A DNA stretch of 63,288 bases, counting the filler, from Reticulomyxa filosa (lineage: Eukaryota > Protista > Foraminifera), in the NCBI GenBank assembly GCA_000512085.1. It is 10 parts of 10 records of this genome, joined end to end, with 100 filler letters (N's around TTAATTAATTAA, not from the genome) between each part and the next. Parts side by side here need not be neighbours in the genome. Positions count along the whole stretch, not along the records: positions 57,501 to 62,025 come from ASPP01038989.1; 9 more parts are not named here. One strand, given 5' to 3'. This document shows positions 27,217-63,288 of the stretch, one piece after another. The notes below the pieces were generated by a model. It was not told the DNA's origin. It saw nothing but the letters and a program-made list of their open reading frames with translations, and ran no database searches. The translations under genes and the position numbers were made by a program. Positions within the stretch are counted from its first letter, which is position 1, and each line of letters begins with the position of its first letter.

Positions 27217-27316
27217 NNNNNNNNNNNNNNNNNNNNNNNNNNNNNNNNNNNNNNNNNNNNTTAATTAATTAANNNNNNNNNNNNNNNNNNNNNNNNNNNN
27301 NNNNNNNNNNNNNNNN
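27217..27316. other. Artificial contig spacer; identical spacers at 35141-35240, 36670-36769, 38036-38135, 46199-46298, 49874-49973, 51409-51508, 57401-57500 and 62026-62125
   Basis: Identical N44-TTAATTAATTAA-N44 100-mers carrying stops in all six frames. Confidence 0.98.
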
Positions 27317-27399
27317 CCCTCCCTTTTTTTTTTAAAGAGACGGAGGGGGGGAGGGAGGATGGAAAGAGGAATGAAAATTTTTTTTTTTTTTGCTTTTGT

Positions 27400-28344
27400 G
27401 TGAAAGCGTATGATTTGTTGAAGAAAGCATATAACTATCGCTTAAATGGCATCGCGCATGAAGAGGCTCTGTTTTCAATGCATTGTTTGGCGGGTGATGT
27501 TTGGGTGGAATGCCACCCCGTTGGATTTTTTTGGGACACAATGCTGCAGTACTTACATTACAATCAAAGGAACAAAAGGAAATTAGAAGAAAAAGATGAT
27601 GACGATGATTATTATTATCATGGTACGAACAGAAAACAAAACATGGTTGAAAATGAAAATCAATTTGAAAAGTGGAGTGAAAATGAGGTTGAACCAAGCA
27701 TTGATAAGTACTCGGAATGGAAGTATCAATGCATATTTTTAAAGCACATGTTGCGACGACAGATCTATTACAAACAACAAATTGCAAAACAACACAATGT
27801 AACAAATATTCGGGTAATTGCAAAGTCCCCTTCCATGACCTGGTGTCTGCCAGTGGTTAGGGAGTACTTTCAAGACTGTAAAATCATTTTGGTGGTTCGA
27901 GATCCAAAAGAGATGCTTTGCCGCAATTTGTCATTGATGCATAAGTCTTGGAGGACTTTGTATGGAAATGACTTAATGAAAAAACTTTGGAGTGCTGCGG
28001 CCAGAAATGTCATTTGGAGACGATATGAACAATCAACCAGAATTTTGGATTATCTTCACACTCTTTCTCCTCAGGATAAACATTGCTTAGTTATTCGTTA
28101 TGATCATTTAAAATACAATGTCAAAGAATGTGTTCAAAATATTTTCGAATTTGCTCAGCTACCTTGGAGTCAAGAATATGCCGAGTGGCTCCAATGTGAA
28201 CATCAAAAAAATATCAAAAAAAAACGCTTGTATGATGTTAATGATTTGCAACAATATCGGATACCTGTTCAACCTGTTCAAGAACTTTTTTCTTCTGTTT
28301 GTCAATATTTTCAATTTGACAAACAATGGTGTAAACCCACTTAA
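27400..28344 (+). CDS. P-loop sulfotransferase family protein (5'-partial)
   Basis: KSPSM...YFQDCKIILVVRDP (3'-PB-like motif) and LVIRYDHL...IFEFAQLPW are typical of the Sulfotransfer_3 family. Confidence 0.75.
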   Translation: MKAYDLLKKAYNYRLNGIAHEEALFSMHCLAGDVWVECHPVGFFWDTMLQYLHYNQRNKRKLEEKDDDDDYYYHGTNRKQNMVENENQFEKWSENEVEPSIDKYSEWKYQCIFLKHMLRRQIYYKQQIAKQHNVTNIRVIAKSPSMTWCLPVVREYFQDCKIILVVRDPKEMLCRNLSLMHKSWRTLYGNDLMKKLWSAAARNVIWRRYEQSTRILDYLHTLSPQDKHCLVIRYDHLKYNVKECVQNIFEFAQLPWSQEYAEWLQCEHQKNIKKKRLYDVNDLQQYRIPVQPVQELFSSVCQYFQFDKQWCKPT

Positions 28345-28867: not shown

Positions 28868-31230
28868 TTATTGGAACCCTTTCAATTGCTGAGAAGTTCC
28901 ACCAGCATTTTTTACAAAATCAGGCTGTGCTTGGATTAAAGCCGGATCTTCCAAGTCTCTCCATTTACCAGTGCCATGAGGATCTAGCAGATTGAAGAGA
29001 GAGCCTTTTTGTTGCATCTGCTTTACATATACGCTGAGTTTGTGATTTCCTTTCATATAATCGTTCTCAAAATCTATTTGATCTTTTGATTCGTCTTCGT
29101 CTTCGTCTTCATTTTCTTTTTCTTTTTCTTCTTCGTCTTCCTCTTCCTCTTCACTACCAATCTGATCAAACATGCCATGAAATTCATCAGCGTTCATGTT
29201 CGATTTCTCTGTCGATCGTGCTCCGACACCAGCAAAATTTTCTTTATGTTCTAATTTAGTCGCGATTTGTGAGATGACTCCACTGCTCTTGTCCAAAGCA
29301 AATCCAAGACACAATTGATTATATCGCTTGCATTGTCATATACATAAACATATGTACATACATATATACAAAAATAAAAAAAAAGTAAGTGTCAGTGAAA
29401 TACTCGTTTTGTAAAGCGTAGAAAGCTTGGAACCATGCATTCATTTCTTTTTCATTGTCACATGCAAAATAATACTTGCAAGTCCTGGTGGTGATTTTGA
29501 AAACAAAGTCTTTGTGTCCAGTATCGATAGTGTCATCGGACTGGCTCGAGTCTGTGGTATTTTTTTTGGCTGTGTGGCTGTTCCATTGCGAATATCTTTG
29601 CCATCGACAGTTTGGATGAACGTTTCATGCAAGGAAATATTCCCTTTCACGTACATTTGTACAGCTTGCTGAAAAAACGATTCACTGAAAAACACAATCG
29701 ATTTAAATTTTTGGCAATGGAAATCGCTGGCAAAATAGAACAGCCAGCCTTTCGACACTGCAAAATAGCGTTTCCTCCAAACCTCGGATTGTTTCGAATT
29801 TTTTTTCCACAAATAGCCTTCATGTGATGTCACCAGTTGTTTGGCACCATCGATGGCTTCTTTAAGGCGCAATAGCCATTCGTCCTTATTTTTTTTTTAG
29901 TGTACCCATAGCTTGTCGTACATTTTTTAAAAAAAGAGGAGAGGGGGGGGGTATGCAAGGCCCTTTTTTAAAAAGTTCCAAAACAAACCCGCTGTTTTTC
30001 AGTTTCTGCAGCCATGACCCAATTTCGGTCTGGCGTCAACAGCTGTATGGTATACGGAAGCCTATAAATATATAAATATGTATGTATACATATATATAGA
30101 TATGTTTATATATTTATATTTATATATCTACACAAATAACATCACAAACAACAATAATATTGACATTACGTCGTAGCAATTTTGAAATATTGTTATCATC
30201 ATTACTATTCTCAAAAAAAAAAAATTAGGATACTATAAAAAAAAAAAAAAAAAAAAAGTGAACATTGAAATATATCATATTAAATTCCTCTCAACGTATA
30301 CTGCTCGGGATCCCCAGGACAAATGAGCAAGACTTGACGAAGAAGAATGACCCCCATGGACTGCATATTATGTTCATTATCGTAATATCGCATTTCATGA
30401 GTGTCAAAGATCACAAACCATCGTTTTTTCCACGATTTGCGTTTTTCGCCGCGCTTGGTCAGCCACCCTTGGAACAGTCGACCACCAAACGTCGCGTTTT
30501 CAATGGCATATCGCCACCCCTCCAAGTCTGTGCTATCTTTGGCACACAGCACAAATGTGCGCTTCGCCGTGACTATAGCAAACGCAAAGTCTTTGTCCAC
30601 AAACGCCGGCAGTCGCTGCTTTTTTTTCAAATCCGACCCATTTTGTTTGTTGATGTTGTTGTTAGTATCGCTCGCGCGCGGTGATCCTATTGGCGTCGAG
30701 TCATCGCCGCTACCGTACAAGTCTTCGCTTAGCGTTGTCCCACCATCTGCTAATCCTGTGTTACTGCGTTGCAAAAAGTTCACGTAGCCACCGTCCATAA
30801 CCCTTTTCTTTTTTTTTTTTTTTTTTTTTACACATAAACACATAAAAATATACAAAATACACACACACGCAAAATCGGAGAGGGGAGGGGGAAAAAAAAA
30901 AAAAAAAAAAAAAAGTAAACCATTTGAATGATAGTCACTTAGCGATTCGGTCGTTTTGCGAGTCTCTTTGTTCTGCATTTTTTGATGCGACTCTTGTGTT
31001 GGGATCAAATGGATTGATTGCACGCCAGACAGATCAATTGCACCGGCTGGATTTTTTTTTTTAACGTAGTCCTCATGTTTCTCAAAGTAAGATAGCTTCC
31101 TCCCTTCGTACAACACAAAGTATCGCTTCTTCCATGACTTGTTGATCTTCCCTTTTTTAAATAGAAGGCCTTCGCGAATTGGCTTTCCTTGTCCATCTTC
31201 ATTCATTGCTGAATCACCCTCCGATGCCAT
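28868..31230 (-). CDS. Triple pleckstrin-homology (PH) domain protein with acidic tail; multi-exon
   Basis: Three PH beta1-beta2 signatures: REGLLFKKGKINKSWKKRYFVL, QGWLTKRGEKRKSWKKRWFV and HEGYLWKKNSKQSEVWRKRYFAV. C-terminal helices DLEGWRYAI and EWLLRLKEAI. Confidence 0.85.
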
Positions 31231-31855
31231 TCTTATGTTTTCCGACCCTCGTTGCTAACACAATTTTTTCAAAGATGATGATGATTGCTTTTATAACGTG
31301 CTTTGAGGGATACACAAATTAATTGAAGCAAATATAACTTGTTTGTTTTGGTTGGACTCTCAACCACAGAACAAAGATTAATATAACAAAAAAAAAAATA
31401 TCAATGATAGTCTCCCTTTCACTGCCTGCTTTTTTTTTTGGTTTAAAAAAAATATTGTAGTAATATTTAACGTGGCTACCCCTACTCAAGAAAGAGGTAT
31501 GGGCAATCTTAACTCTTCTTACTGCTCATTTTTGGTTTCGCTAATGCAGTGCCGAATTTCAATTCGGAAATTGTCAAAAAAAGCTGTACAAATGCAAGGA
31601 TTTGGACATGGAAACAGTTACAAGAGCGAGTGTAGAAGTTAGCAAAGAATTTCAACTATCAATTGATAAAAAATTTGAACAGATTCAAGCTATATATTCA
31701 TGCACGAATTGTATTGTAAAAAAATTCAAAGCCTGGAATCAAACAAACGAGTGAACAAATAAACAAATAAAAAAATGGACGACATCAACAACGAAAAAAA
31801 AAACAACCCAAGATTGAATATAGCAAGCGCTGGAAGGGTGTGATATAATGTACAT

Positions 31856-35060: not shown

Positions 35061-35240
35061 TTGCAAGCAAGCAAGCAAGCAAGCAATGATAAAAATCAAT
35101 CGATGGAATATATAAAGCAATAAAACAAAAAAAAAAAAAANNNNNNNNNNNNNNNNNNNNNNNNNNNNNNNNNNNNNNNNNNNNTTAATTAATTAANNNN
35201 NNNNNNNNNNNNNNNNNNNNNNNNNNNNNNNNNNNNNNNN

Positions 35241-36669: not shown

Positions 36670-37998
36670 NNNNNNNNNNNNNNNNNNNNNNNNNNNNNNN
36701 NNNNNNNNNNNNNTTAATTAATTAANNNNNNNNNNNNNNNNNNNNNNNNNNNNNNNNNNNNNNNNNNNNCAAAAATAATAAAAATGATTAAAAAACGCAA
36801 ATATCGAACTACACTTAGCTAAAAAAATAAAGGACAAAATATTGAAATAATTAGTAAATATATAATAAAAAACCAAAATGATATTTAAAAACTACAATAT
36901 TAATATACATTTTTAAAAATTATGTATGAATGTTGTTTTTTCATTAAAAAAATCAATTAATAGCAATATTGTTCAGTAATAACTTTATTTTTTCTTTGAC
37001 GTACGGTGATATCTAATAATATGTAAATTCACTTTAATTTTATGTTTTTTTCATCAAAAAAAATTTGCCTTTAGCCATTAAGAAAATGAAATGATGTTAT
37101 CCAATTATCTTTAATGCAAATACATTTGTCATTTATTTTTGTTGTTTATTCATCCATCTTTCTAAACAAATAGCAAATCATCTATACTGTAACTGTTGTT
37201 GCCTATTTCATGATAGATCATGTTAAAACTTCTTTTCCACAGCAAAAATATATAACAAATTGATATGATAGTTGCAACAACGTTTGTCCATAAATTCCTT
37301 CTTTTTTTCTTTATATTTTATTGTACTCTTTGATTGATTTATTCTTTTCAAATAAATATAACTCTTCATTGCCCAATCCATATTCTTTCAATATCCAGTA
37401 AAATTTTATATAATTCAATATTTTTACTAATATGCATAGTTCATTCGATGCATTGATCATTTATTAAATCTTTGCAACCTGAATATCATCTGAAGTACTT
37501 ACATAACTTATGAAAAGCAGTTTGATTTTTTTCATTCTCTGATGTCACACTTTTCAATCCACGATTGTGCAAATTCAAATGATACAATTTAGAATATTGA
37601 AATTATATTTATTGAAATACAGTAATATTGCACAAATATGTTCTAATTGAAGTAAATATCATTCAATACTACATCTTCGTCAACTCTTGCTTCACAATTA
37701 TCAAATTCATATTTAAGTCTTATCAATTCATTTCCATGAATAGGCTGTGTTTTTATTTGTATTTGATGTTTGGTTCTCAAAACCTTGTTTCAGTTCATTG
37801 ACTAAGGATCCAACAACTCTTTATATGTTGCAATTATGTCTCTCCAAGTAACTTTGAATGAGTTGTTGCTATTTTGCTTTTTTTGTTACGTTGAAATGTT
37901 TTAGTTCTTTTATTGTTGCTCTTTTTTCTTTTAGCGTCTTTTTTACGTTTGCTTCGTTTCGTTCCCTTTGTTAGGCGTTGAAAAAGTTTTTAAATATA

Positions 37999-38035: not shown

Positions 38036-38135
38036 NNNNNNNNNNNNNNNNNNNNNNNNNNNNNNNNNNNNNNNNNNNNTTAATTAATTAANNNNNNNNN
38101 NNNNNNNNNNNNNNNNNNNNNNNNNNNNNNNNNNN

Positions 38136-39787: not shown

Positions 39788-42763
39788 ATGGCATCTGCAA
39801 ACGTATCCAATAGATTATCAAAGCTTTTGAATCATCTGGAGGGTATGTTTTGCTATACTTCCTTTTTTTCCTCTTCTCTGTCACGTTAAGCGTCTTCAAC
39901 AGAAATCAAGAAAGATCAGACCCTTCAAAAACAAGAAACAAGTGGCTCAACCATCTCCCCAAAAGTGAGTGTATTAATTATAACAGTGATTGATTATACT
40001 TTTTATACTTAAATATTTTTCAAGGTGAGAAAAGAATTTTTTTTTAATTAACAAAAAAAAGGATCTGTGGCAACGATGGTACGACATACAAGTGAATGTA
40101 AAAGAGTTACAAAAAATTTTGGATCATGACAACTTTGAGATGCGAGATAAACTTCGAGAGGTGCTGAAAGATGACGTGTTTATTCCTCGTTTGCATCTGT
40201 CATTGTCAGAAGAGCGCGAATTGGCATTGCGACGATTAAAAAAGTTTACGGATACCAAACTGTTCTCAGTGCGAGATTTCGAATCCAACCCCCGAGCAAT
40301 TTTCGCAGCACATGAGATTGGTGGATACGGTGACGGGTCCACAGCGACGAAGATGACTGTCCAATTCAATTTGTTTGGCGGCACCGTTTTCAAAGTTTTG
40401 TTTTCAAATCGAGATGTCTGACACTTTGTCTGTATTCAATACTAAAATACATTGTATACATACATATGTATATGTGAGGGATATTTGGAGAAGAAAAAAA
40501 GAATTGGTTTTTGTTTTGTCATTTATTGCACATTTCCAGTTAGGCACAAAACGACATCACCATTTATTGGATGGTATCGATTCGTTGCATGACGTAGGAG
40601 TTAATAATTGAATCGATACATTTTTTCTTCATTTTTAATCATCTAAAAAACACACAAATAAATACATTGCACATAAAATGGATTTTAGAGAGTTTAAATT
40701 GTATATGCAGTATACATACACATATACATATATATGTGCACATGTATATGCAATGTTTTGACGCACTATTGTGTTACGTGACTTTTTTTTTTTTGAAAAA
40801 AAAAAGTGCTTTGCGTTGACCGAATTGGGCTATGGTAATAATGCAGTTGAAATGGAAACAACCGCAGCTTACGACCATTCGGACGGAACATGGACGGTGA
40901 ACACCCCCAGTCCGTTGGCACAAAAGTATTGGATAACCAATTCCGCTATTCATGCCCATTGGGCGGTGGTGTTTGCCCAAACCATTGTGGATAATACCAA
41001 TCATGGCATTCATGGATTCTTGGTCCCCATTCGCGATCGCAAAACTCATCAACCTTTGCCTGGGGTGCGCATTGAAGACATGGGATATAAATTTGGATGC
41101 AATGGGTAAGTTATCATTACATATCTTTACACAAACTTTGATTGGCATAACAATATTGACTTTTGGGGTTACAATTTACTTTTTTGCATTGTATATACAT
41201 GCGTGTATGCTTTATGACTCACATACATTTATATTTACATACAGTGTGGACAACGGCAAGTTGTGGTTCAATAACGTAAAGGTGCCCCGAGAAGCATTAT
41301 TGAATAAAATGAGCGATGTTGATGCCAAGGGTGTGTTCACCAGTACCATTAAAAAAAAAGAGACCGATTTTTAAAAGTGGCCGATCAACTCTTGAGTGGG
41401 CGCATTTGTATTGCTGCCATGATGTTGAGCTCATCTAAATTTGCCCTCGCTAGTGCCTTGCGCTATGCTGCTACAAGGCTTTGCGTCGGCCCAACTGGAA
41501 AATCAGACACTGCCATTTTAGAATATCAACTGCAACAAAGAGCTTTGATGCCTTTGTTGGCCAACACTCTTTGCTTAAATTTCGGCTTGAATTATGTCAA
41601 AGATAGGTTCGTAGTGCGTTCATTATTTTGTCAATTTCTTAAATATATATGTATATACATTTTTTTAATAAAATTTTAATCTTTCAATGTTTATGATGGA
41701 AATGGACATAGATATTCTGGTATTGGACCAAATGATCCTCAAGAAGTTGTCATCCTGGTATGGCTGATAGTCTTTCTCAAACAAATGAAAAGAATTGTTT
41801 ACGCATATGTGACACAAGATTTGTTTGTCCAAAAAAAATTTAAAAAATGAAAAAATAGTGCTGCGGCATTAAACCTTTAATTTCGTGGCATAGCAATGAA
41901 ACGTCGACTATTTGTCGCGAGCGATGTGGTGGCCAGGGCTATTTGTCTATCAATATGCTCTCTTCTACAATCACCTTTGCACATGCAGGCATGACCGCTG
42001 AAGGAGATAATAGTGTACTGTATCAGAAAGTCAGCAAAGAATTGTTGGACCGAATGCGTCAGAAAAAACACGTCTTCAATGACAAAGAGATCAAAGAACA
42101 CTTACAAAAATTGAATTGGAATGATCCCTCATCTTTGCAATATCTATTTTTGGCTTTAGAAAAGTTGTGCTTGGAGACCTTAGGCATGAAATTAATGACA
42201 GCTGTTGGTGGTAACAATGACAAGCTATTCCATGTGTGGATGAAAGAACAAAGCGATTGGATTCAATCCAGTGCTTCTGCTTATGCAAATCGAGTTACTA
42301 CACGTCTTTGTTGTGTTGATTTTTGTATTTTGTCCCCTTCTCCAAAACTTACACAAATTACAATGTTGTATGTAACAATCGTGTTCGTGCGAACATTTTG
42401 AATAATTAACTACCTTTGCATATACAGATAGTTTTTGAGGCGTCGCTGAAAGTCTTGAAACAAGTCCAAGATGATTATTTACGCACAGTAATTGAAAAGT
42501 CTATTTTGCTGGCTCAATTAGCTGCAATTGAAAAAAATATTGGCAAATTGGTTAGCTATTCGTTGATTAGCACAAAAGATGGCCAAAATTTGGGCGATCA
42601 CATCAACAAATTGTGCAAATTTTTGGCTCCAAAATGTTTGTCGATATGCCAAGCCTTTGGCATTCCAGAAGAACGATTTCCTCCCATTGCTAGGGATTGG
42701 GTTGAATATAACAAGTGGGACAATCAAGGAGAAATTTATACTCACCACCCTTTGACCTCATAG
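39788..42763 (+). CDS. ACOX: Peroxisomal acyl-CoA oxidase with N-terminal PTS2; multi-exon
   Basis: Motifs [43 protein letters not shown] and TAEGDNSVL. Exon 1 [17 protein letters not shown] contains RL-x5-HL. One apparent A-run indel at 41351-41359. Confidence 0.92.
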
Positions 42764-44960: not shown

Positions 44961-46298
44961 GACTAGGAGCTACTTACTAATCAATCTTTTATGACGTCCA
45001 TTTTTGAACAACTAATATTGTCAAAAGTTTTCACGTTGCTTGTAGGCACAATCAATTTCGTTACATCAGATATTCAAAGAGATTTTGTAAAAAAAAAAAT
45101 TGTTTAAGACACTCCTACACATTGTCAATTTACTACGCAGAAGAACATAATGCTTCGTAAATAGTCAACCGTAATTAGTATACAGTTGGCTAATACTTAG
45201 TCTATTCTCACTTTGCAGTAAATGTAACAACAGTTAGCAGGACGTCGCTTAAACTACTTTTTTTTTACAAAAACTCCTTTACGTACCCGACAACGGTGCC
45301 AATTCGAACATGAAAACTTTTCAATGCAACAGCTCGTCCAATATAAATGAACCAGTTTGATGATAGCAAACAGATCATCGACGCACATGTTTTTTTTAAC
45401 ATTATGTCCACAATTTTTTTGAGCGCGAATATGGTCCATTTTCTGCAGCTTGCTGTGTTTGAATGGCCTTTACTGCAAGATACTTCATTTTCTTCACAAT
45501 CGCGCTATTTATGTCTTGACTTCCGCTTTGGATCGTCAAATGGCTCTCTTTTTTTCAGACCATGCATCCCTTTGCATCATCCATGGATTTTTTTTTAATG
45601 CATGGAATTTTTTTATCATGCAAATTGCATCGATATTTTGTCAATGTATTTGGAGTTGTGTGATGCCAATACCACCTTAGCTCTTTTTTTTTTCCAAAAT
45701 AAATACACTTGGCTTGAGTCATACTCCATGCCACTTATTCTTTTACGGTTTCCTCTATTGAATCGAATGACGAGGAGAGAACTAAATAACACACTTTAAG
45801 ACAACTTAAAACAGAACGTGTTTTCTTAAAACAAAATAAAAGTCTCCCCCTTGAACCAAAAGATTTTAACACAAATTCAAAGTGGATTAAAAAGGAAAAA
45901 AAAAAAAATGTTTAAGTATCAATACAATATAGAAATAGCTCAATTGGATAATGTTATTCACACTTATGTACGTTTCCTGCATTTTGTTTTTTATTCGTTT
46001 CAATTTTTTTTTTTTAATGCCTCCACTTTTTTTCGATTAAAAAATAAAGCATTGAGAAACAACATGCTTGAGAAAGGCTCAATGATAAAAAAAACGATTG
46101 AATTTTTCAAAAACGTAAATGCACAGATTAAATAGAGATCACTTTCATAATGTTTACAGCTTTCAAATATTTAAGCTGTTTGTTTTTTAAAAAAAAAANN
46201 NNNNNNNNNNNNNNNNNNNNNNNNNNNNNNNNNNNNNNNNNNTTAATTAATTAANNNNNNNNNNNNNNNNNNNNNNNNNNNNNNNNNNNNNNNNNNNN

Positions 46299-48700: not shown

Positions 48701-51700
48701 TTTTTTTTGGTTTCACTCTATCAACACATCTCCTTCACATACTTATCGCTTCAATTTATCAAAACACTTTAGGTTTTTTTTTAGAAGTAATATCACTCCC
48801 CCCCTTTTTTTTAAAAACAAAAAAAAGTGCAATTTTAAATTATATAAAAAAAAGGAAGGAATATTATCTCCCAACGACATTGGGACTAAATGCGTATGGG
48901 GTTTTTGCACTTGTCAATGAAGCTTGGAAAGCTGCATGAAGCAGTTCCATCGATGGCCAAATATATCTATGCGGATTTTGATGCAGGAAAGGATAAGGAT
49001 CACAGCAACGGTGGTCCCTCGCAAATACAATACGATTGGTGGAATCCTGCTCAACTCAAACAACACGTAACTGAGTTTTTTGGAACTCGAACAAGCCCCC
49101 TTTTTTTCCTCCAGTCGTTTGGAGTTTCAAAGTGATGCTTTGGACAATCTATGGACTGCTTTGGAACAATTGGCAAGTGGCTTATGTTCCAATTCGAGTG
49201 CCAAACAACTGTCCTTTTTCAAACGAAGGATGTACTACTCTTTGACTCAACAATTTGGATGAAATCCAAGTAATACAACTTTTGCCATTGTATTTTGAAG
49301 TCCCATTGTATAAATCATTCAGCGTGTCAATCCCCATTTGCACAAAGTGCGTCGGAAGGCTAGAGCTTTATTCTCTTGGTACACGGACTCAGTCTACCAA
49401 CTCGATTATCATGCCATTAAAAACTTGGAGTTGCCAACAACCCAGGATATAGCTATTATGCATTATATGACTTGAGCTATGCCATTTTGATGTTTCACGG
49501 AGGGATTGAGCGAGTGCAACGTCGCATTCGAAAGGCTCCATCTCAATATCCTAGGTGTGACAAGGGCAATGCTCGTTATCAAATGCTGCATTTGCAATAT
49601 GGGTATATTTAAAATTCAAGCGCTTCCTCCACCACCGTCACCACTTAAAAGTAGAAGAGCTATCACCAATAATGAGACAGTCACAGAGAAGTTGTTGACT
49701 GCCAAAGACAGTGACAACAACACTCGCAAAAACAAAATTACTTTGGTTTGGGCAAAGTGATTGTGACAAACCTTTTTCTTTGTCCGGATTTATTGTTGCT
49801 TCAATTTTTTTTTTTAACTTCTCTCTTCAAATTTTTTTGATTGATAAATCAAAAATCTTTTATTTGATCTTTTNNNNNNNNNNNNNNNNNNNNNNNNNNN
49901 NNNNNNNNNNNNNNNNNTTAATTAATTAANNNNNNNNNNNNNNNNNNNNNNNNNNNNNNNNNNNNNNNNNNNNATGTCGAAATTTTCTGCTTTGAGATGT
50001 CAACATCCTTCTTTTGATGAAACTTTATTTCACAAATCAAAACAAGACACAAAACACTTTTTAAAAAAAAAATTAATTTTCATTATGTAGCATTTTTTGC
50101 ATTTGCGCAAGGCAGTAATTTTTGTTATTTTTAAAGCTATTTTAATCCATGGCTTGCTTTAGTTTGAAAAAACTTTAAAAAGCAGCCAAATTACTGCAGA
50201 AAAAAAACTAACGGTTATGTTTGACAGTCGACTGAGAAACGTCAAAAACCTGTTCGACGGCAACGACAAGACAAAAGAGTTGTCCGATTATAAAGCTGAG
50301 TTGTTTGCCGTTGCTACTGAATTGGATGCGCTCAAACAAACGCTCACCGCTGTTGTTAGACAACAGAAAGAGTTATAAGCACTAACTCTGTTTGATACAA
50401 TTTGTCTTTTGGGGACCTTTGGGCATTGTGACTGCTTTTTCACTGTTAAATTTGCATTCAATTCTAAATTTTGTAATGTCACATTCTCAATTATAATTTT
50501 TTTTAAATAAAAAAAAATATCGGGCAATCCAACCTTCCAGAAGCAAACATGTCCGGCACCAGCGTGGCGACCCCCATCATCAAGGAGTTGGTGATAGTGC
50601 CCGCAACAGTTTTGCGAGGGTATTAAATTTCAGATATATTATATTTCGCAACTGGTATAGGTGTTCAGAAATCTCAACAATAGTATTTTCAGTAAAATTT
50701 TAAAAAATAGCACATTTTGTATATTCTCAGATATTATACTCTAAAATAACTTTTTTTTTTAATTATATATTTTTTCCTACATTTTCTTTTCTTTTTTTTA
50801 CAGGGTCAGGAGGATGGACTATTTCTCCCTCTCATACTTTGGTAACAAACAAATGGCAACATTCGTTTCAATTGCAAAAAAAAAATTATTTCGGAGAGCT
50901 CATGTCCACCTTTAAAAAAAAAATTAGATCCGAATGTTGTTTTTTCATCAATCAAATCGTCATCTTACTATTCTACTTCTCCTATTTCTTTCTCTTTCAT
51001 CCATTTTAATAAAGTTTTTAATGATTGCGTTGATTATCTCTTTATAGTTTTTTGCATTCTGAACAAAAATAAGAATATTGAAATCAATTACTCGTGAAAG
51101 AATCTACTAAATGTTGTGTGATCGTGCTCAAATTTTTTTTTGAGATAATCACTAATTGTTAATTTTTATTATCAAAACGAAAAAAGAAACATAGCGATGT
51201 GAAACTAAAAGTTTCATTGCTTCCTTTTTGATGCCTTTGAAAATCAATAACTTTTCATTTTGTTTGTGTGAAAGCTGTTGAAAAGCAAAGCAAAATCAGT
51301 GAAAAAAGCAAATTGTTTGATAGAAGAATGATTTACCACATGGTGAATGAAGACAGTTGATAAAGTGTAAGAGAACGCTTTGAAAGCATATTCTTCCTGT
51401 TTTTTTTTNNNNNNNNNNNNNNNNNNNNNNNNNNNNNNNNNNNNNNNNNNNNTTAATTAATTAANNNNNNNNNNNNNNNNNNNNNNNNNNNNNNNNNNNN
51501 NNNNNNNNCCTTTCTCTTTCTTTGAGTGTTTGGTTTTTAGTTTTGTCGTTTGTGTCCAGGAAAGCTTTTATGTTGGTTATGACGGTCGAGATACTATCTA
51601 CAGTGTACTGTCAGTATGAGATTAACGCAGATGAAATTACATATTGCTAATAGAAACTGCTCACAAACAACAAATTCGCGTTTATTCATCTGCACTGATG

Positions 51701-56340: not shown

Positions 56341-57500
56341 TGTAAAACTATTCGACAGAAGACTTGGTGTATATGAAGGTGCCACCAAACTGACACAACA
56401 TGGACACTAACGACAAGGGATTGTTAGTAGAGAACAAACTGAAAGAATTGCAAGCATGGCCATATTCACATATTGCGCTTAACACATTGACTTATCATTG
56501 CGACATCAGCACATTATGTTGGAACACAATCAATTTATTTAAACTTTGGTCAGCTTTATTTCAACCATGCATATATCACGCATTTTCGAACTGCATAATA
56601 CTTCCCCAATCTTCAAGTATACGTAGATCAAGGTGATATGATTACCAACTTAGGAATACATATTGTAGAAGTCACTCATAGTATTTAGAATGACACCATC
56701 AAATAATAGTTGATTACAACTTCATTCAACAAGGACACATGTCTGGCCATCTAATTAGTTTCTGCTATACTTTGGTGGCACTAAAAGATCATATTACAAA
56801 ATCTTATTGTTTCTTATGCTTTAGTCCTTGATTAATCCTTTTTTTAAATTAGTTATGGTTTTGTATGCATGTATGTTCTTGGTGGTTTATGATTTTTGTA
56901 TAATGTACTTTACACATTTTATAAGCATTGGTTATAATATGTTGACTTATTGTAAGTCTTATTTTTCTCAATGTTTTGAAATTAATTTAATTGTATAAAA
57001 GAATATCTATCTTTTCATTTTTATTATTTTCAAAAAAGAAAAGGGCTGTCTTTTTTTTTTTTAAAATAGTGTTATTCGTTGCAAAAAGTTTGGGGAGATA
57101 GAAAAATGAATGTACAAACAAACTCTTCAAGGAAGAAACACGTAGAGATAAAAGATTTTTCAATAGTATTAAAATCTGGATCTTATTTTAGATATGAAAA
57201 AAATAACCACATTTGAAAAATGATACAATTAGAATAAAACACACTTGCGTTTCAATAATAATAACAAATCACACAATGAAATTAATTACATTCAAAGAAA
57301 CAGAACATAACACAAAATAAATCAATGTGTTGATTTGTTATATAATTGAAGAAACTATCCAGACAATATTGCCCAAAATATATATATATATATATATTGT
57401 NNNNNNNNNNNNNNNNNNNNNNNNNNNNNNNNNNNNNNNNNNNNTTAATTAATTAANNNNNNNNNNNNNNNNNNNNNNNNNNNNNNNNNNNNNNNNNNNN

Positions 57501-58267
57501 GAATTGACACGCAAGTTAGTATATTGAAATGTGTTGTTACGTTTGTCATATTCAATTGATAGTCCTGTTTTTCCAGAAAATAATAGCATTGCATCTTTAT
57601 TTTGATTTGCGTTTGATCTTGCTCTTTCTGCTATATTTGCTGCTTTGGACACGAAACAATGAAATGACATATTATTGCCTATTGGTAAGGTACTATGATT
57701 CACGTATTGAAATGTATGCAAATTAAACACATCAATATTCTCTGGCAGATAAGTGAGGAATAATAAATGACTATTAATGCCACCAATCACTGCACGCAAT
57801 CCTTTATAATTGTCTTTCTTTCGTCCAATACAAATCGACTTATTGTATTTATCAGTCAAAGCAGTCCATTTATTAACATCCATCGTCTCTTTACTTTTGT
57901 CTTCATTCTCGCTGTTTTCAGGATTATCCCAAACACTCACATATTTCATTATTAATGTATGTTTAAACTGTCCGCCTAGGGATAACAATGTGATACCATT
58001 TGGATTGCTATTATTTGTAAGTCTTAGCACACAATGCCCATCCAATTCAATATCCACTGGATACGAACATATGGCCTTGTACTGATCTTTGATGGTATGA
58101 TAAGAATAACAGGTCTTATTTTCCCAACCTCCACAGATCAGAATTTCGTGATTATAAACTATACATTGACTACGAGAAAGTAAGACTGGTAAAGAGGCCA
58201 ACGTTACAAAAGGAGTAGGAGTATCCATTATCTGTGTTTGCTCTGACTTGTTATCACTTGATTCCAT
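57501..58267 (-). CDS. Kelch-like beta-propeller protein of a lineage-expanded family (3'-truncated)
   Basis: TPFVTLASLP...SQCIVYNHEILICGG...CYSYHTIKDQYKAICSYP...GHCV...ITLLSLGG, with kelch-type GG motifs. Confidence 0.7.
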
Positions 58268-58541
58268 TTTAAAGTACTCAAACGTTGGTATTTGTGTTCT
58301 ATTTTTAATTATTATTTGCTTGAAAAGGGCCAAATGTAAAAAAAAAAAGGAGAATACTTTTTTGAAGTATTGTTAGGCCTCTGTTGTCGAGGGTTAGATT
58401 GATAGTTCAAAATACAATCCTAATTTTTTTATCTTTGAATTGAAGAAACCTTAAAGAGGGAGGCAACATCCCGATTTCTGACAAGCAAACACACAATAAC
58501 AATAAACTACAATTTGGAGCCAGTAGTTTGACTAATTTTTC

Positions 58542-59171
58542 TCACATCAGTTGTTGAATCGGAGCAATAACACATTGTTCGTTTGGTGATGAGCAAGTAA
58601 ATGATTCAGCACCCTTAACTATACATTTGTAGCAAAAAGAACTCACGTTTATACAATAAGTACAAATCAACACTCACTTATATTTTACCTTTTGCAACTG
58701 TTAAACAAGCCATGCAAAAATAATAGTCGCAGCCCTTGCATTTTATGAACTTACATCCAGACTCGTGTTCCACAAACTATTTCAATTTATAACACAATTC
58801 TGTTCACATAGTTTAAAAAGAGTGACATCTTGTGTATGTCTTCTCCTTAATAAAGCACGGGAGGGACAGCAATAAACACACACACAAAAAAAGGAAATAC
58901 CATAAAACAACGCGGACAGGCTCTAATGTTTGGAATTTTTACGTCCAAGTTATAGGATGTTGCTTTGTTTTTACAACTATCTAAAACAACTTGAATTTCC
59001 AACACAGGACAATTTGGATTCCCGCAAATTTGTAATCCGTTGCGTTTCCAAAGGCGTTCACAGACCCAACAAAAATTTGTACCACATGACGAGCAAGCCG
59101 CCCTACATACCACAACATACAACACACTAGTAGTATATAATATCAAGAAAATCGAATAAACAAAAATAGAT

Positions 59172-59207
<36 letters not shown>

Positions 59208-60471
59208 GACCTGAAAATGTTGAGAGACTCGCTTGGCTCTCCCAAGCATTTGCAATTAGGACACTTTTTGATTCCATTTTTTTCATTGATCGATTTGCAA
59301 TTATCTGCTGATACCTTAAATTTTCAGAGAGGCTCAAATCGGCTACCTCGGCAACTAGATCCCAATTCCATTCTCTTGCACATTTGGGATCAGGGCAACA
59401 AATACTGGTTGTGGTCAAATCCTTGCCCAATCTCCATTTGATGTATTCGTACATTGTATGTGCTCCTATTGCATGTCCACAAGGCATTTGAGCCCGTGGG
59501 ATGAACATGTCGTCGTCAAGGGTTATGACATCTGTTTTAGTTGACAATTTGATTTGTGGATATTTTTTTGGATTAAGATGACGAATTCTCTGCTCGTCTT
59601 CTTTTCCAATGTTCTCTTTTGCAATATCTTCTTTTGCAAAATTCTCTTTTGGAATTTTTTTTTTCTGCAATGTATTCTTTTCTTAGGTATTCGTTTCTTA
59701 CATATTTTGTTTCTCTATCTTCTTTTTTGGTGTCATCTTCAACCCACAAAACACCGAGTTATCTCAAAATCCAGCACGAAGAAAAAATACAAACAACAAA
59801 CGAGAAAAAGCACTGCCTCCACCGTACATCTTCATTACGAATGAAAACGCTGTAGGTTTAATAATGTTGTACTGTTCTAAAGTTTTCTATAATCCATTCC
59901 ACATTAATCAATATACTCGAAACAAAAAACTTAGACAAGTAAGCCCAAAAAAAAAAAAAAATACGTAACACTAGGCTCTGTCAACGCAATTCCACTTCCT
60001 AGCAATGTATACGTATCCTCCAAACCCAACATATTGTTTATTTTGTCCCTTATTTGTCTCACAGTCATTGTTTTTTTGACCTTTATTCGTCTGCTTGTTG
60101 CACCACTTGTCACACTGCATATAAACTCATTGTTAGTTGTTCGCGAGACAGAATTTCGATAATTTAGTTCTAAGTTATTTCGTATGAGTGATGAGAATCT
60201 CTCACAATAAGCATTGAAGATCTGAGTGGCCGCAATTTTGGGAATCTCAAGGCCTTCTATATCTTCTTTAACCATTATGGAGGTGACAAATGTTTTGCCA
60301 TCGACTCCATTTCTGTGTAGCGCGATCATTACTTGCTCTTGATACGTTTCTGCAACTTGAGCCTTTGCCCAAGCTTTTTTTTTTTTTTTGAGCTTCAAGG
60401 ACGGAGTGTTTCAACAAAAAAATAATGGAGATAATAATACCAACAACTTCTTCAACTGTCCACTGTTGCAT
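58542..60471 (-). CDS. SAM + ubiquitin-like + RBR (RING1-IBR-RING2) E3 ubiquitin ligase; multi-exon
   Basis: SAM: QWTVEEVV|AWA...NGVDGKTF. UBL ending MKMYGG. Degenerate RING1 MPCGH...CCPDPKC, IBR CPNC...CSSCGTNFCWVC, RING2 RACPRC|FVEHESGCKFIKCKGCDYYFCMACL. Two homopolymer indels. Confidence 0.82.
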
Positions 60472-60741
60472 GGCACTTTTGGAAAATAATTGAACAACGT
60501 GCAGAATAAAAAACAACAGCAAAACTGGAACAAACAAACTTTTTTTTTTTTTTGGTATTCCCTCTTGCACCCTACTGCATTTACGACTGTAACATTTTTA
60601 AAAATCTTTTTTAAGCAATTTAACGCAAAGCGACATAAGTTGACAGTATTTCGAGAGTGTATACGCAATTTTTTATCAGTCACAAAAAATCTACAAAGAT
60701 TCTAACTGAAGAGGTATGTTAATGGCAGGCCATTTATTATT

Positions 60742-62025
60742 ATGTTAACACTCAGCACGACGATATTGCAAACAAAGAAGGACAAGATGCTTATGAAAAA
60801 GAATTTTTTGACGAGGGAGTTTCCACTCTGTTGTGGTTGTGTTTGGTCGTCAATTGTTTTTATTGCAGTCTATATGTTGCTTAAGGAAATGAACACGCCA
60901 AAGTATGGTGCAACGAACATAGCAGGTCTAATTCTTTTTGGGTTTATCTATGTGTTATCTACGAGTGCTTTTTGTACTTACTTTTTGTATTCCTCTACAT
61001 TGGAAATGACACTTATTCCTTTTAAAAAATCAGACTTGCCTTGCGATGTGACAAACTCAAACCAAGCTGTACAAATATGTAATCAATCATATAATGGGAA
61101 AAGTGCAGCATATGGTGGACAGAGTAAAAATACAACAAGTTTGTAATGCTTTTTTTAAAAATAAACAGCACATAAGAATTGAAATATATGATATAATCTG
61201 ATATCTAAAAAAAAAAAAGACGTATCTGATATGTCGCAGTCAGATGACGAATATCACAAGGAACATCAATTTTGCACTAATTTTTGCAATGTTGCTGTTG
61301 AGGAATGGGAACGAAAAGAAATAAGTGGTTTGTAAAAAAAGAGGCTTATTTTTTATTGTGTACCAGTTGGACGGAAACAAAAAAATTATTTTTTTACAGA
61401 GTGGGGAAAAACGCTGATACCAGTAGCTCAGAAAGAGATAGAGCGTTGGTTGCAAAATGAAAATTTCATGTTTAGTGGCGAGACAATATCGCAATGGGAT
61501 CACAGCACTTGGCAATTTAAAGTGAAAAATGGAGTTGCTCGGACTCAAATTCGAGAGAGTTGGGAAAAACTTAAAAAAAAGCAGCACAACAACAATAAGG
61601 CCAAATGTGGTCATAAAAAAGATAAACATACGATCATGAGCGAATATGGACAACATTCTACTAGGGGAATAGTCGGTTTCCAAAATTTGGGTAACACATG
61701 CTATTTAAACGCTGCTATTCAAGTTATCTTGTCTGCATCTCAAACACACCTTTGAATAATTTTTTTTTTTTTTTTTTTCTTTCTGTCCTCCAATCTTTCC
61801 TTCTTGAATGCCAAAAGTGTTTATTGCAAGTGCGACCACTAATGAAAATGGAATGGAGTTCACAACCCGAAGAGAACACCTTTGGCAAAGAGTGGATACA
61901 TTTGACCAATGAAGTGCATAAAGAAAATTATGCCGGAGAGCGCATTCTCAGCACTAAATACTTGATACCATTTCTTGGAGACATCGACTCAAGGTTATTC
62001 CTTTTTTTTTTTTTTTTTTTTTTTT
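60742..62025 (+). CDS. USP-family (peptidase C19) deubiquitinase with two predicted N-terminal TM helices (3'-truncated)
   Basis: Cys box GFQNLGNTCYLNAAIQ|CL. The 2-TM exon 60742-61138 splices in frame (GT at 61139, A12G at 61219) to NVSDMSQSDDEY and on to the Cys box. Confidence 0.78.
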
Positions 62026-63288
62026 NNNNNNNNNNNNNNNNNNNNNNNNNNNNNNNNNNNNNNNNNNNNTTAATTAATTAANNNNNNNNNNNNNNNNNNN
62101 NNNNNNNNNNNNNNNNNNNNNNNNNACATGAATACACTAATACAGGAATCCATAATCGATGATAGCCATATATCCATCCACAATCAAAATGGCACGACCA
62201 CATTCGAACCGGCGCCCACAAAAATCATAATATCAGCAACCAATAATCTTTGATTCTTTTTTTTTTGAAGTGATGTTTTTTATCAGCTCCAAACTTTTGG
62301 TATTTGAAGAAAAAAAGAAAAGAGTTGTTCAACTAACTCTTTCGAAACGAAATTGACTCATTAATCAACAATCTTTTCACCACTGGCGCCGGTACTGGAA
62401 CGAACTTAGTACAAGACTGTAGAAAAAAGGGGAGAAAAAGTTCCTGGCTAACACATTCCAATTCTCTTTAATTTAGATGAAAAATGAAATTTTGTTAATA
62501 TTTGAATTCTTCAATTTCAAATTAGAAAGCATATGAGTTCACAATTTGATGCAGAATAAGTAAATGTGGAAAATGTTTTTTTCAAAAAAGTTATTGTGCG
62601 ACAGAGCCAAATCAAAGATTGGATATTTGATGCAGTTTGTGGCTGCAAATTAATAGAGTTTCAAGGAGATCTTGCTATCAAAGCTTGTTTTTAAGGAATA
62701 GTTTTGCCCATTTCTGTTGGTAATGTTGGTTTTATTGCAATATTTTTGAAACAAAAGCAAAAGTTTAAAAAAAACGAACTTTCAGCGGTTATTTGTCAAA
62801 CAACCCACCAGCTGTTTTTTTATTTAAAAAAAGTGTTATTCATTAGTAGGAAATATTTTTGATTCTGTAATTAACTCAAAATACATTTCCTTATTTGAAT
62901 GAAAGGCATAATCACTTGTATCAAATGATGGATGAATCAATGTGTTTTTTTTTCCCTTCAATAAATTTGATAAATTTCCACTAGTACAATCCATTTACTT
63001 GCAAAATCAGACAATTTAAGTACCTAACATGGCACGGAGCATTTGGGATGATTGAAACGGGGATTATAATCGCTTAATCCTTTCATTTTTATTATGCAAA
63101 TATGACTTTTTCTTCTTTCTTTCGATTATACTGCTCATCATTTTAAACACAAAAATAGAAATGAAAAAGAATGGTATCATCACTTTTTTTTCTTCATTGA
63201 AAACAATTTTTGGCTTGTTTGCTCGTGTACAAATTATTGATATCATTCAACTAATCGAAAAATTATATCATTTGTTTCATCAAAATAA

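What the first reader, a model, noticed from the sequence alone, without database searches (positions are those of the whole stretch)
58542..62025. Head-to-head ubiquitin writer/eraser pair: SAM-UBL-RBR ligase and TM-anchored USP
Seen on one contig: divergent ATGs only ~270 bp apart (60471 minus, 60742 plus). The apparent standalone 2-TM ORF splices in frame into the USP. Known: Parkin (UBL...RBR) is opposed by the N-terminally membrane-anchored USP30, and bidirectional promoters can co-regulate genes. Inference: a co-regulated ubiquitination/deubiquitination module acting at a membrane, analogous but not necessarily orthologous to Parkin/USP30. Caveat: gene density is high, so adjacency could be chance.
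Basis: partly seen in the sequence, partly recalled or inferred. Interest (0 to 1): 0.74.

Follow-up and report, generated by a model that had tools for sequence, protein, structure and literature searches.

The report
Head-to-head RBR ligase and USP genes
On one small contig of the foraminifer Reticulomyxa filosa, a SAM-UBL-RBR ubiquitin ligase gene and the start of a ubiquitin-protease (USP) gene lie head to head 270 bases apart; the USP is predicted to carry a two-helix membrane anchor and its own SAM-like domain, and that the two enzymes work together is possible but untested.

Summary
The window is 10 Reticulomyxa filosa contigs joined by N/TTAATTAATTAA linkers. The finding lies on one 4,525-bp contig (57501-62025) that GenBank already annotates as RFI_36258 and RFI_36259.

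The minus-strand gene (60471-58542) is a real SAM-UBL-RBR gene. My spliced model aligns end to end with an intronless 426-aa homologue. Three points are new:
- RING1 has lost one of its two zinc sites in every family member.
- The UBL keeps a Gly-Gly at ubiquitin's C-terminal position.
- The window copy has a 1-nt frameshift in an A7 run.

The plus-strand gene starts at 60742 with a two-helix hydrophobic hairpin. It splices in frame (61139-61219, GT-AG) into a SAM-like domain and then a USP Cys box. The contig ends about 75 residues into the catalytic domain, so an active USP cannot be verified. No RNA data could be obtained.

The Parkin/USP30 analogy is not supported. The RBR is closest to Ariadne, and USP30 is not among the listed matches of the USP fragment. 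Functional coupling remains unproven.
- For: both proteins carry SAM-type domains, and a paralogous locus (RFI_36261) keeps the same divergent layout.
- Against: block duplication and high gene density explain the adjacency equally well.

Interest is modest.

The parts
58542..60471 (-). SAM-UBL-RBR gene (GenBank RFI_36258; the deposited model is faulty). My exons: 60471-60441, 60373-59970, 59886-59814 (or -59791), 59600 (or 59676)-59211, 59102-58901, 58776-58689, 58618-58542 including the stop.
   Evidence: The spliced translation aligns end to end with the intronless homologue P0007. All introns are GT..AG, 67-213 nt, 67-78% AT.
60195..60471 (-). SAM domain of the ligase (residues 1 to about 70), split by intron 60374-60440.
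   Evidence: Pfam on the homologue P0007: SAM_Ste50p 21.1 bits (cut-off 21), SAM_1 E 0.044, SAM_2 E 0.19. The AF2 model has five helices at pLDDT 56-66. The exon1/exon2 junction is confirmed by P0007.
59818..60128 (-). Ubiquitin-like domain ending ...KMYGG, with the Gly-Gly aligned to ubiquitin G75-G76. It contains intron 59887-59969.
   Evidence: phmmer against ubiquitin chains. Foldseek of the P0007 model against ubiquitin/UBL structures: TM by target 0.76-0.87, E about 1e-5 to 1e-6. GG is present in 4 of 4 family members.
59601..59813 (-). Lys/Glu-rich linker or intron between UBL and RING1. The exact splice is uncertain (alternative 59677-59790, used by NCBI). An A10 run lies at about 59655-59664.
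   Evidence: Both variants keep the frame and align with P0007. Paralogue models read through or splice this region differently.
59380..59529 (-). Half-degenerate RING1 (VITLDDD...MPCGHAIGAHT...ICCPDPKC). The CGH and CP..C ligands are kept. The first CxxC and the C..C after the His are absent.
   Evidence: Alignment to ARIH1 starts at CGH, and ARIH1 'FCMQC' aligns to 'VGAQS'. The same loss is seen in P0004, P0005 and P0007. This exon is 77% identical to P0004, against 28% for an intron.
59277..59283 (-). A7 homopolymer where the reading frame shifts. All homologues need one more base here (..MKK-NGIKKCPNC).
   Evidence: P0004 and P0007 read LMKRNGVKKCP / LMKGRGVKKCP in one frame.
59009..59263 (-). 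IBR (in-between-RING) domain, split by intron 59103-59210.
   Evidence: Pfam IBR 1.5e-11 with two stretches on P0007. Window exons give E 0.003.
58705..58918 (-). RING2 (CPRC...ESGCKFIKCKGCDYYFCMAC), split by intron 58777-58900. The putative catalytic Cys codon is 58753-58755.
   Evidence: Aligned to ARIH1/ARIH2 RING2 'GGCNHM.C' and to parkin RING2, E 2e-4. The deposited model RFI_36258 lacks this exon.
60472..60741 (.). 270-bp divergent intergenic region (putative shared promoter/5'UTRs). It contains a block, 60626-60661, that is conserved in the upstream sequence of paralogue RFI_36261, and out-of-frame upstream ATGs at 60716 and 60722.
   Evidence: tblastn of the P0005 N-terminal read-through: 'YTLEI.S.YV.L'.
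60742..62025 (+). 5' part of the TM-SAM-USP gene (GenBank RFI_36259, partial). Exons 60742-61138, 61220-61327, 61400-61722, 61818-61993. A GT donor at 61994 is followed by poly-T and the contig end.
   Evidence: Paralogue P0003 is colinear from TM2 to the USP core.
60820..60987 (+). Two hydrophobic helices (residues 27-47 and 59-82) joined by a 10-residue loop. They are preceded by a Lys-rich N-terminus, giving a predicted hairpin with both ends cytosolic.
   Evidence: Kyte-Doolittle 19-residue means of 1.6-2.25. AF2 helices 27-50 and 57-89, at low confidence.
61139..61219 (+). Intron 1 (81 nt, 81% AT, phase 1). Its donor GTTTGTAA supplies the apparent stop codon of the TM ORF.
   Evidence: Intron 2 (61328-61399) starts with the identical 8-mer donor and ends its ORF the same way. 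The NCBI model uses this junction. No RNA evidence.
61300..61572 (+). SAM-like domain of the USP (VEEWERKEISEWGKTL...RESWEKL), split by intron 2.
   Evidence: In the ESM Atlas structure search, residues 99-185 of paralogue P0003 match SAM/SAM_PNT clusters in 10 of 10 rows, TM 0.61-0.73. BLASTP to the ligase SAM N-terminus gives E 0.018. There is no Pfam SAM hit.
61675..61722 (+). USP Cys box GFQNLGNTCYLNAAIQ. The catalytic Cys codon is 61699-61701.
   Evidence: Pfam UCH 30.8 bits (cut-off 23.9) on P0002. PDB USP21/15/4/2/Ubp6, E 1.7e-5 to 5e-4.
60784..60849 (-). Antisense of USP exon-1 codons 15-36. It matches residues 6-27 of the over-extended model of RBR paralogue RFI_36261.
   Evidence: 13 of 22 residues identical, colinear with the intergenic match. 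Summed E is 4e-7 without composition correction and 0.005 with it.

Best explanation
Two real, already annotated Reticulomyxa filosa genes lie head to head on this contig, and their adjacency was most likely inherited through duplication of the whole segment, so a working partnership is not shown.

Gene 1 encodes a SAM-UBL-RBR ligase. As an RBR it would take ubiquitin from an E2 onto the RING2 cysteine and pass it to a substrate (inferred from the family). Its RING1 keeps only one zinc site. Its UBL keeps ubiquitin's terminal Gly-Gly.

Gene 2 encodes a protein that is predicted to start with a two-helix membrane hairpin. This hairpin is most likely joined by the 61139-61219 intron (about 80% in my estimate) to a SAM-like domain and a USP catalytic domain facing the cytosol. 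Only the first part of that catalytic domain is on the contig.

The two genes share a 270-bp divergent intergenic region that probably holds both promoters (inferred). Co-function is possible, for example by SAM-SAM contact at the membrane, but nothing here demonstrates it.
For: Identity and annotation: (RFI_36258, RFI_36259, 4,525-bp contig).

Ligase gene model:
- The spliced translation aligns over its full length with the intronless 426-aa homologue P0007/L001.
- Domains: IBR 1.5e-11, SAM_Ste50p at its cut-off, ubiquitin alignment and fold, ARIH1/2 RING1-IBR-RING2 at E 6e-5 to 1e-4.
- Purifying selection on the RBR core: RING1 exon 82/107 and IBR 18/21 identical to paralogue P0004, against 8/29 in an intron.

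USP gene:
- UCH Pfam above its cut-off and Cys-box matches in the PDB.
- Two hydrophobic helices.
- Donor GTTTGTAA is shared by introns 1 and 2.
- In paralogue RFI_34830, TM2, linker, SAM-like domain and USP core are colinear within one annotated ORF.
- The TM exon has no other relative among 1.84 billion representative proteins (2 hits, self and P0003).

Block duplication: the N-terminal read-through of RFI_36261 matches, in order and orientation, the antisense of USP exon 1 and the intergenic region.

High gene density: a third ORF (57501-58267, minus) starts 275 bp from the RBR stop.
Against: - No transcript evidence exists for any splice junction or for expression of either gene.
- The RBR gene is out of frame at the A7 run, so it could be a pseudogene instead of an assembly error.
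- USP exons are no better conserved than introns against RFI_34830 (exons 35/67, 18/34, 54/89, 31/56; introns 7/13, 17/29), and that paralogue's model lacks the Cys box.
- A Met (61231) just after the intron is also present in the paralogue, so a separate USP start cannot be excluded.
- Two SAM-bearing ubiquitin enzymes as divergent neighbours, kept in a second locus, is also what a true functional module would look like.
Confidence: 0.55

Rival explanations
1. The two genes form a functional writer/eraser module. They would be co-transcribed from the shared 270-bp promoter, and the soluble SAM-UBL-RBR ligase would be recruited by heterotypic SAM-SAM contact to the membrane-anchored SAM-USP. 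The pair would then set ubiquitin levels on membrane-proximal substrates or on each other.
For: - Both proteins carry SAM-type domains directly at their N-terminal or membrane-proximal side.
- There is weak direct similarity between the two SAMs: BLASTP E 0.018. With the ligase-SAM HMM, 15 and 13 of 2000 shuffles reach the real USP SAM scores. With the USP-SAM HMM, 0 of 2000 reach the P0007 score.
- The divergent layout and an intergenic block are conserved upstream of paralogue RFI_36261.
- The predicted hairpin topology would put the SAM and USP domains in the cytosol, where the ligase is.
Against: - There are no expression data.
- The SAM cross-tests are weak or negative for the window's own ligase SAM (88 of 2000 shuffles) and for P0004 and P0005 (584 and 620 of 2000). 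hhalign gives probability 0.2-0.3%.
- SAM domains seem common in this genome: another one lies at 7978-8379 in this same window.
- Retention in a paralogous locus follows automatically from segmental duplication.
- Paralogue USP RFI_34830 looks degenerate.
Confidence: 0.27
2. One or both genes are decaying duplicates (pseudogenes) in a repeat-rich genome, and the neat domain architecture is a remnant without current function.
For: - There is a frameshift in the ligase gene at 59277-59283.
- USP exon identity to RFI_34830 (52-61%) equals intron identity (54-59%).
- The RFI_34830 model lacks the Cys box.
- At least three RBR and two USP paralogues all sit on 2-4.5-kb contigs.
Against: - The single frameshift lies in a homopolymer of an assembly whose contigs break at homopolymers, so a sequencing error is at least as likely (inference).
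- Every splice site and all other reading frames of both window genes are intact.
- The RBR core is clearly under purifying selection and is conserved in another organism (P0007).
- The window's USP keeps an intact Cys box.
Confidence: 0.13
3. The 2-TM ORF (60742-61146) is a separate small membrane-protein gene, and the USP starts at Met 61231.
For: - The ORF ends with its own TAA.
- A Met follows 4 codons after the proposed acceptor, and it is conserved in paralogue P0003 ('VSFM').
- No RNA evidence supports the junction.
Against: - Only 85 nt would separate the stop from the next start on the same strand.
- The 'stop' is part of a GTTTGTAA donor identical to that of the certain intron 2, which splits the SAM-like domain.
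- In RFI_34830 the annotated ORF runs from TM2 into the USP without a stop.
- The TM ORF has no stand-alone homologue among 1.84 billion representatives.
Confidence: 0.18

Closest known systems
Ariadne-type RBR ligases (ARIH1/HHARI, ARIH2/TRIAD1)
   Same: These are the best sequence matches across RING1(part)-IBR-RING2, E 6e-5 to 1e-4. The matches include the catalytic-Cys context and the short stretch after RING2.
   Different: - There is no C-terminal Ariadne domain: the protein ends about 30 residues after RING2.
- The N-terminus is SAM plus UBL, not an acidic/UBA-like region.
- RING1 has lost one zinc site.
Parkin (UBL-RING0-RBR) opposed by USP30
   Same: - A UBL lies upstream of an RBR.
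- Parkin RING2 matches at E 2e-4.
- Language-model features are nearest to IBR/parkin/RBCK1 clusters at 0.81-0.86, which is a lead only.
- The opposing DUB is membrane-anchored at its N-terminus (USP30 anchoring is recalled, not tested).
   Different: - No RING0 was found.
- The UBL is preceded by a SAM and keeps Gly-Gly.
- The anchor is a two-helix hairpin followed by a SAM-like domain.
- USP30 is not among the 60 listed PDB matches of the USP fragment.
- Parkin and USP30 are not neighbouring genes. Parkin's divergent neighbour is PACRG (recalled).
HOIL-1L/RBCK1 (UBL-NZF-RBR)
   Same: UBL followed by an RBR. RBCK1 clusters are among the Atlas feature hits.
   Different: No NZF/RanBP zinc finger was found. 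A SAM domain is present.
Membrane-anchored USPs (USP30 N-terminal TM, USP19 C-terminal TM) and SAM-bearing membrane RING ligase BFAR/BAR
   Same: A ubiquitin enzyme is tethered to a membrane with its catalytic part in the cytosol. BFAR SAM domains are the top structural matches of the USP's SAM-like domain.
   Different: A hairpin of two helices plus SAM plus USP is not an architecture I know of or found in the papers searched (listings only). The N-terminal exon has no relatives outside R. filosa.

Membership tests
RBR E3 ligases | RING1 with the full C3HC4 set of eight zinc ligands | tested here: not met
   Only the CGH and CP..C ligands (one zinc site) are present. The first CxxC and the C..C after His are replaced in the window gene, P0004, P0005 and P0007, that is 4 of 4.
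RBR E3 ligases | IBR domain between the two RING-like domains | tested here: met
   Pfam IBR 1.5e-11 and IBR_1 6.6e-10 on P0007, above their cut-offs. The window's spliced model is colinear with P0007.
RBR E3 ligases | RING2 with the catalytic cysteine | tested here: met
   ESGCKFIKC in the window and AGCKFMKC in P0007 align to GGCNHMVC/GGCNHMQC of ARIH1/ARIH2. Activity was not tested.
Parkin family | RING0/UPD domain between UBL and RING1, and parkin as the closest RBR | tested here: not met
   No parkin-specific Pfam family was hit. The linker is a short Lys/Glu-rich stretch. ARIH1/2 score better than parkin, which matches in RING2 only.
Ariadne subfamily | C-terminal autoinhibitory Ariadne domain | tested here: not met
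   The protein ends about 30 residues after RING2 in the window model and in P0007.
Ubiquitin-like domain | Beta-grasp fold alignable to ubiquitin | tested here: met
   phmmer to ubiquitin chains: single-copy chains E 0.005-0.04, multi-copy chains down to 2.5e-30. Foldseek TM by target 0.76-0.87. Pfam ubiquitin is only E 0.15.
SAM domain (ligase) | Profile match and five-helix bundle | tested here: met
   SAM_Ste50p 21.1 bits against a cut-off of 21, and SAM_1 E 0.044, on P0007. Five helices in the AF2 model at pLDDT 56-66. This is a marginal pass. The window's exon 2 alone gave no SAM hit.
SAM domain (USP) | Profile match and five-helix bundle | tested here: inconclusive
   No Pfam SAM hit at E<=1. 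The Atlas structure search gives 10 of 10 rows as SAM/SAM_PNT, TM 0.61-0.73, but the underlying model has mean pLDDT 0.45. My own AF2 model was too poor to use (pLDDT 35).
USP (peptidase C19) deubiquitinases | Cys box with catalytic cysteine | tested here: met
   Pfam UCH 30.8 bits against a cut-off of 23.9 on P0002. GFQNLGNTCYLNAAIQCL aligns to USP21.
USP (peptidase C19) deubiquitinases | His box and Asp/Asn of the catalytic triad | not testable with these tools
   The contig ends at 62025, about 75 residues into the domain. No whole genome is held.
USP30 | Single N-terminal TM anchor and specific sequence affinity | tested here: inconclusive
   Two hydrophobic helices are present, not one. 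USP30 is not among the 60 listed PDB matches, but the fragment is too short for orthology.
Bidirectional (divergent) gene pair | Divergent starts less than 1 kb apart | tested here: met
   The ATGs are 270 bp apart. Transcription starts are unknown.
Bidirectional (divergent) gene pair | Correlated expression | not testable with these tools
   No sequencing run was listed for this contig.

The most novel reading that the evidence does not exclude
The pair is a self-contained, lineage-specific ubiquitin-like cassette. The membrane SAM-USP docks the SAM-UBL-RBR protein by SAM-SAM contact and cleaves it after the conserved Gly-Gly. This would release a SAM-tagged ubiquitin-like modifier and an activated RBR ligase at the membrane, and the cassette has been copied as a unit in the genome.
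Probability: 0.05. Interest if true: 0.8.

Novelty: new variant of a known kind. Interest (0 to 1): 0.35.

Why it matters
If the two enzymes really work as a pair, this would be a rare eukaryotic case of an E3 ligase and its opposing deubiquitinase kept together as a genomic unit. It would also be a pair tethered by matching SAM domains.

Independently of that, two points are worth a note for people who study RBR mechanism and ubiquitin-system evolution in Rhizaria:
- The SAM-UBL-RBR family has a conserved one-zinc RING1 and a UBL that keeps ubiquitin's Gly-Gly.
- The hairpin-SAM-USP architecture is a domain combination I did not find described.

The practical value now is limited. The assembly is fragmentary, the USP is truncated, and nothing is known about expression.

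Tried and rejected
- **RNA evidence:** The look-up of sequencing runs on the whole contig listed no run of any kind, so there is no RNA holder.
- **Whole genome:** none is held, so paralogue contigs could not be read.
- **Exon-by-exon Pfam scan:** only sub-threshold hits. The faulty NCBI model P0001 also gave only weak IBR hits.
- **Metagenome scan with the USP alignment:** 153 pattern matches, none confirmed. The patterns came from a poorly conserved linker, so this is a weak negative.
- **Second metagenome scan, with the ligase alignment:** returned only the 1,425-nt transcript-like contig L001, with no neighbours.
- **AF2 of P0002:** pLDDT 35, unusable, and not searched further.
- **AF2 of P0007:** informative only for the UBL and roughly for the SAM.
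- **Complex prediction for the two SAM domains:** not available. The queue was full and nothing was folded.
- **VIA-align fold search:** the machine was busy.
- **hhalign of the two families:** no significant relation.
- **PDB search with P0003:** no hits.
- **tblastn against the rest of the window:** no paralogue of either gene on the other nine contigs.
- **Earlier findings of the scan:** nothing for this genome or for P0003 and P0004.
- **Literature:** searches (listings and abstract starts only) showed nothing on these genes, on SAM-UBL-RBR proteins or on E3/DUB divergent pairs. The R. filosa genome paper is not held. In PMC4758236 I read three passages only, and they say nothing on R. filosa sequencing chemistry.
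- **Rejected reading:** that 'KKLYTLEIV' in P0005 is the exon-1 equivalent, as the MAFFT alignment suggested. tblastn shows it is the conserved intergenic block.
Full report
**What the window is.** The 63,288-base window contains nine linkers of 44 N, TTAATTAATTAA and 44 N, so it is ten contigs pasted together. The finding lies on one contig, 57501-62025 (4,525 bp).

Protein searches identify the organism as the foraminifer Reticulomyxa filosa. The two genes are the deposited hypothetical proteins RFI_36258 (455 aa) and RFI_36259 (319 aa, partial), both on a 4,525-bp contig. No whole genome is held, and no sequencing run could be listed.

**The ligase gene (minus strand, 60471-58542).** Reading the sequence, I built a model of seven exons with GT..AG introns of 67-213 nt.

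A homologue from an unnamed JGI record, P0007, is 426 aa and is encoded without introns on the 1,425-nt contig L001 (ORF 34-1311). It aligns with my spliced translation from the first Met to the last residue. This confirms:
- the small first exon (MQQWTVEEVV|A);
- the intron inside the UBL;
- the IBR and RING2 exons.

The deposited model RFI_36258 misses intron 1, reads through two introns and lacks RING2.

Domain evidence:
- **IBR:** 1.5e-11 on P0007.
- **SAM:** SAM_Ste50p 21.1 bits against a cut-off of 21, SAM_1 E 0.044. The AF2 model has five helices at modest confidence.
- **UBL:** alignable to ubiquitin and matching ubiquitin structures by Foldseek, TM by target 0.76-0.87.
- **RBR core:** ARIH1 and ARIH2 over RING1(part)-IBR-RING2 at E 6e-5 to 1e-4, and parkin RING2 at 2e-4.

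**Three unexpected features of the ligase.**
1. RING1 keeps only the CGH and CP..C ligands. The first CxxC and the C..C after the His are absent in all four family members with this region: the window gene, P0004 (RFI_23822), P0005 (RFI_36261) and P0007. The exon is nevertheless 77% identical between paralogues, while an intron is 28%. This is therefore a conserved one-zinc RING1, not decay.
2. The UBL ends in Y/H-G-G, with the two glycines aligned to ubiquitin G75-G76, in 4 of 4 members.
3. The window copy is out of frame at the A7 run 59277-59283. Every homologue reads as if there were eight A's. Contigs here end in long homopolymers, so I think an assembly error is at least as likely as a real frameshift. 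That is an inference.

The splice in the Lys/Glu-rich linker between UBL and RING1 is uncertain (59813-59601 or 59790-59677). Both variants keep the frame.

**The USP gene (plus strand, from 60742).**
- Exon 1 (60742-61138) encodes a Lys-rich N-terminus and two hydrophobic helices, residues 27-47 and 59-82, with Kyte-Doolittle means of 1.6-2.25.
- The proposed intron 61139-61219 is 81 nt, 81% AT, GT..AG and phase 1. It is in frame, and the deposited model uses the same junction.
- Its donor, GTTTGTAA, is identical to the donor of intron 2 (61328-61399). In both cases the TAA inside the donor is what closes the open frame.
- Intron 2 is certainly internal, because it splits a domain.
- The acceptor at 61399 gives 'WERKEISEWGKTL'. 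The NCBI acceptor at 61366 would insert 11 residues that the paralogue model lacks.

A full HMMER pass of the TM exon over 1.84 billion representatives found only itself and one paralogue, P0003 (RFI_34830; E 1e-4). In P0003, TM2, linker, middle domain and USP core follow each other in one annotated ORF. I put the fusion at about 80%. The rival is a separate start at Met 61231, which is also conserved in the paralogue.

The middle domain (61300-61572) is SAM-like:
- The Atlas model of P0003 residues 99-185 matches SAM or SAM_PNT clusters in 10 of the 10 rows shown, TM 0.61-0.73.
- The Atlas model of the whole protein is poor, and Pfam gives no SAM hit.

The Cys box (61675-61722) passes the Pfam UCH cut-off on P0002. 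It matches USP21, USP15, Ubp6, USP4 and USP2, and USP30 is not among the 60 chains listed.

After exon 4 (61818-61993) comes a GT donor, poly-T and the contig end. The His box and the rest of the enzyme are not available.

**Is the pairing meaningful?**

In favour:
- Both proteins carry SAM-type domains.
- Their N-terminal SAM motifs resemble each other weakly. BLASTP gives E 0.018. With an HMM of the ligase SAMs, 15 and 13 of 2000 shuffles reach the scores of the two USP SAMs. With the reverse HMM, the counts are 0 of 2000 for P0007, 88 of 2000 for the window's ligase SAM, and 584 and 620 of 2000 for the N-terminally cut P0004 and P0005.
- The over-extended N-terminus of the RFI_36261 model is a translation of that paralogue's upstream DNA. 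It matches the antisense of USP exon-1 codons 15-36 (13 of 22 identical, 60849-60784). It then matches the intergenic region (25 of 80 identical, with a 'YTLEI.S.YV.L' block at 60661-60626). Order and orientation are the same as in the window. The summed E is 4e-7 without composition correction and 0.005 with it. At least one paralogous locus therefore keeps the divergent layout.

Against:
- A duplicated segment carries its neighbours along by default.
- A third ORF begins 275 bp from the ligase stop, so 270-bp spacers are normal on this contig.
- Another SAM-domain ORF sits elsewhere in the window, so SAM domains may be common here.
- Profile-profile comparison of the two families is not significant.
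- Between the window's USP and RFI_34830, exons (52-61% identical) are no better conserved than read-through introns (54-59%), and that paralogue's model lacks the Cys box. This points to weak constraint on at least one USP copy.
- The SAM-SAM complex prediction that would have moved my odds could not be run.

**Comparison with known systems.** The ligase works like an RBR: E2 to RING2 cysteine to substrate. That is inferred from the family, not tested here.
- It is nearest to Ariadne in sequence but lacks the Ariadne domain.
- It resembles parkin and HOIL-1L in having a UBL before the RBR, but no RING0 or NZF was found.
- Parkin-versus-USP30 is an analogy of roles only. It is not supported by sequence or by anchor type.
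- I did not find SAM-UBL-RBR proteins, hairpin-SAM-USP proteins or divergent E3/DUB gene pairs described in the papers searched (listings only).

**Verdict.** The genes are real members of known enzyme families with unusual domain combinations, and they are already present in GenBank as hypothetical proteins. The writer/eraser module is a reasonable but unproven hypothesis, at about one chance in four. Overall interest is modest.

Noticed in passing
window 27217-27316, 35141-35240, 36670-36769, 38036-38135, 46199-46298, 49874-49973, 51409-51508, 57401-57500, 62026-62125: The window is not one piece of DNA. It is ten contigs joined by N44-TTAATTAATTAA-N44 linkers, so features on different sides of a linker are not physically linked.
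   Followed up: yes
window 59818-59823: The ligase's UBL keeps a Gly-Gly exactly at ubiquitin's C-terminal position in all four family members (YGG/HGG). This is unusual for an internal UBL domain and raises the possibility of cleavage there.
   Followed up: partly
window 60626-60661: A roughly 36-nt intergenic block is conserved in the upstream sequence of paralogue RFI_36261 (10 of 12 codons in an arbitrary frame). It could be a promoter or 5'UTR element of the divergent pair.
   Followed up: partly
window 60716-60748: Out-of-frame upstream ATGs at 60716 and 60722 open a 10-codon uORF that overlaps the annotated USP start at 60742. In-frame Mets follow at codons 16 and 18.
   Followed up: no
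window 57501-58267 (minus): A third gene lies on the contig: a 255-codon ORF cut by the contig end, starting at the ATG at 58267, 275 bp beyond the ligase stop. It has no Pfam family at E<=1.
   Followed up: partly
P0003 (RFI_34830), residues about 205-215: In the paralogous USP model the Cys box (GIVGFQNLGNTCYLNAAIQ in the window) is replaced by 'GQSF'. The model also reads through two introns. It is a possible dead or decaying copy.
   Followed up: partly
window 59164-59206, 61761-61779, 61999-62025 and other intron or contig ends: Very long A/T homopolymers, up to about 30 bases, sit at intron ends and at the contig end. The assembly apparently breaks at them, and they are the places where frames slip.
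   Followed up: no
window 7978-8379 (minus) and 9267-10840 (minus): A clear SAM-domain ORF (SAM_2 2.9e-9) lies about 900 bp from a kinesin motor gene (Kinesin 8e-75) on another contig. They may or may not be one gene.
   Followed up: no
window 40762-42760 (+), 27319-28341 (+), 30283-31254 (minus), 2203-2805 (+): Other contigs carry ordinary eukaryotic genes: acyl-CoA oxidase, a sulfotransferase, a PH-domain protein and a leucine carboxyl methyltransferase. None is ubiquitin-related.
   Followed up: no
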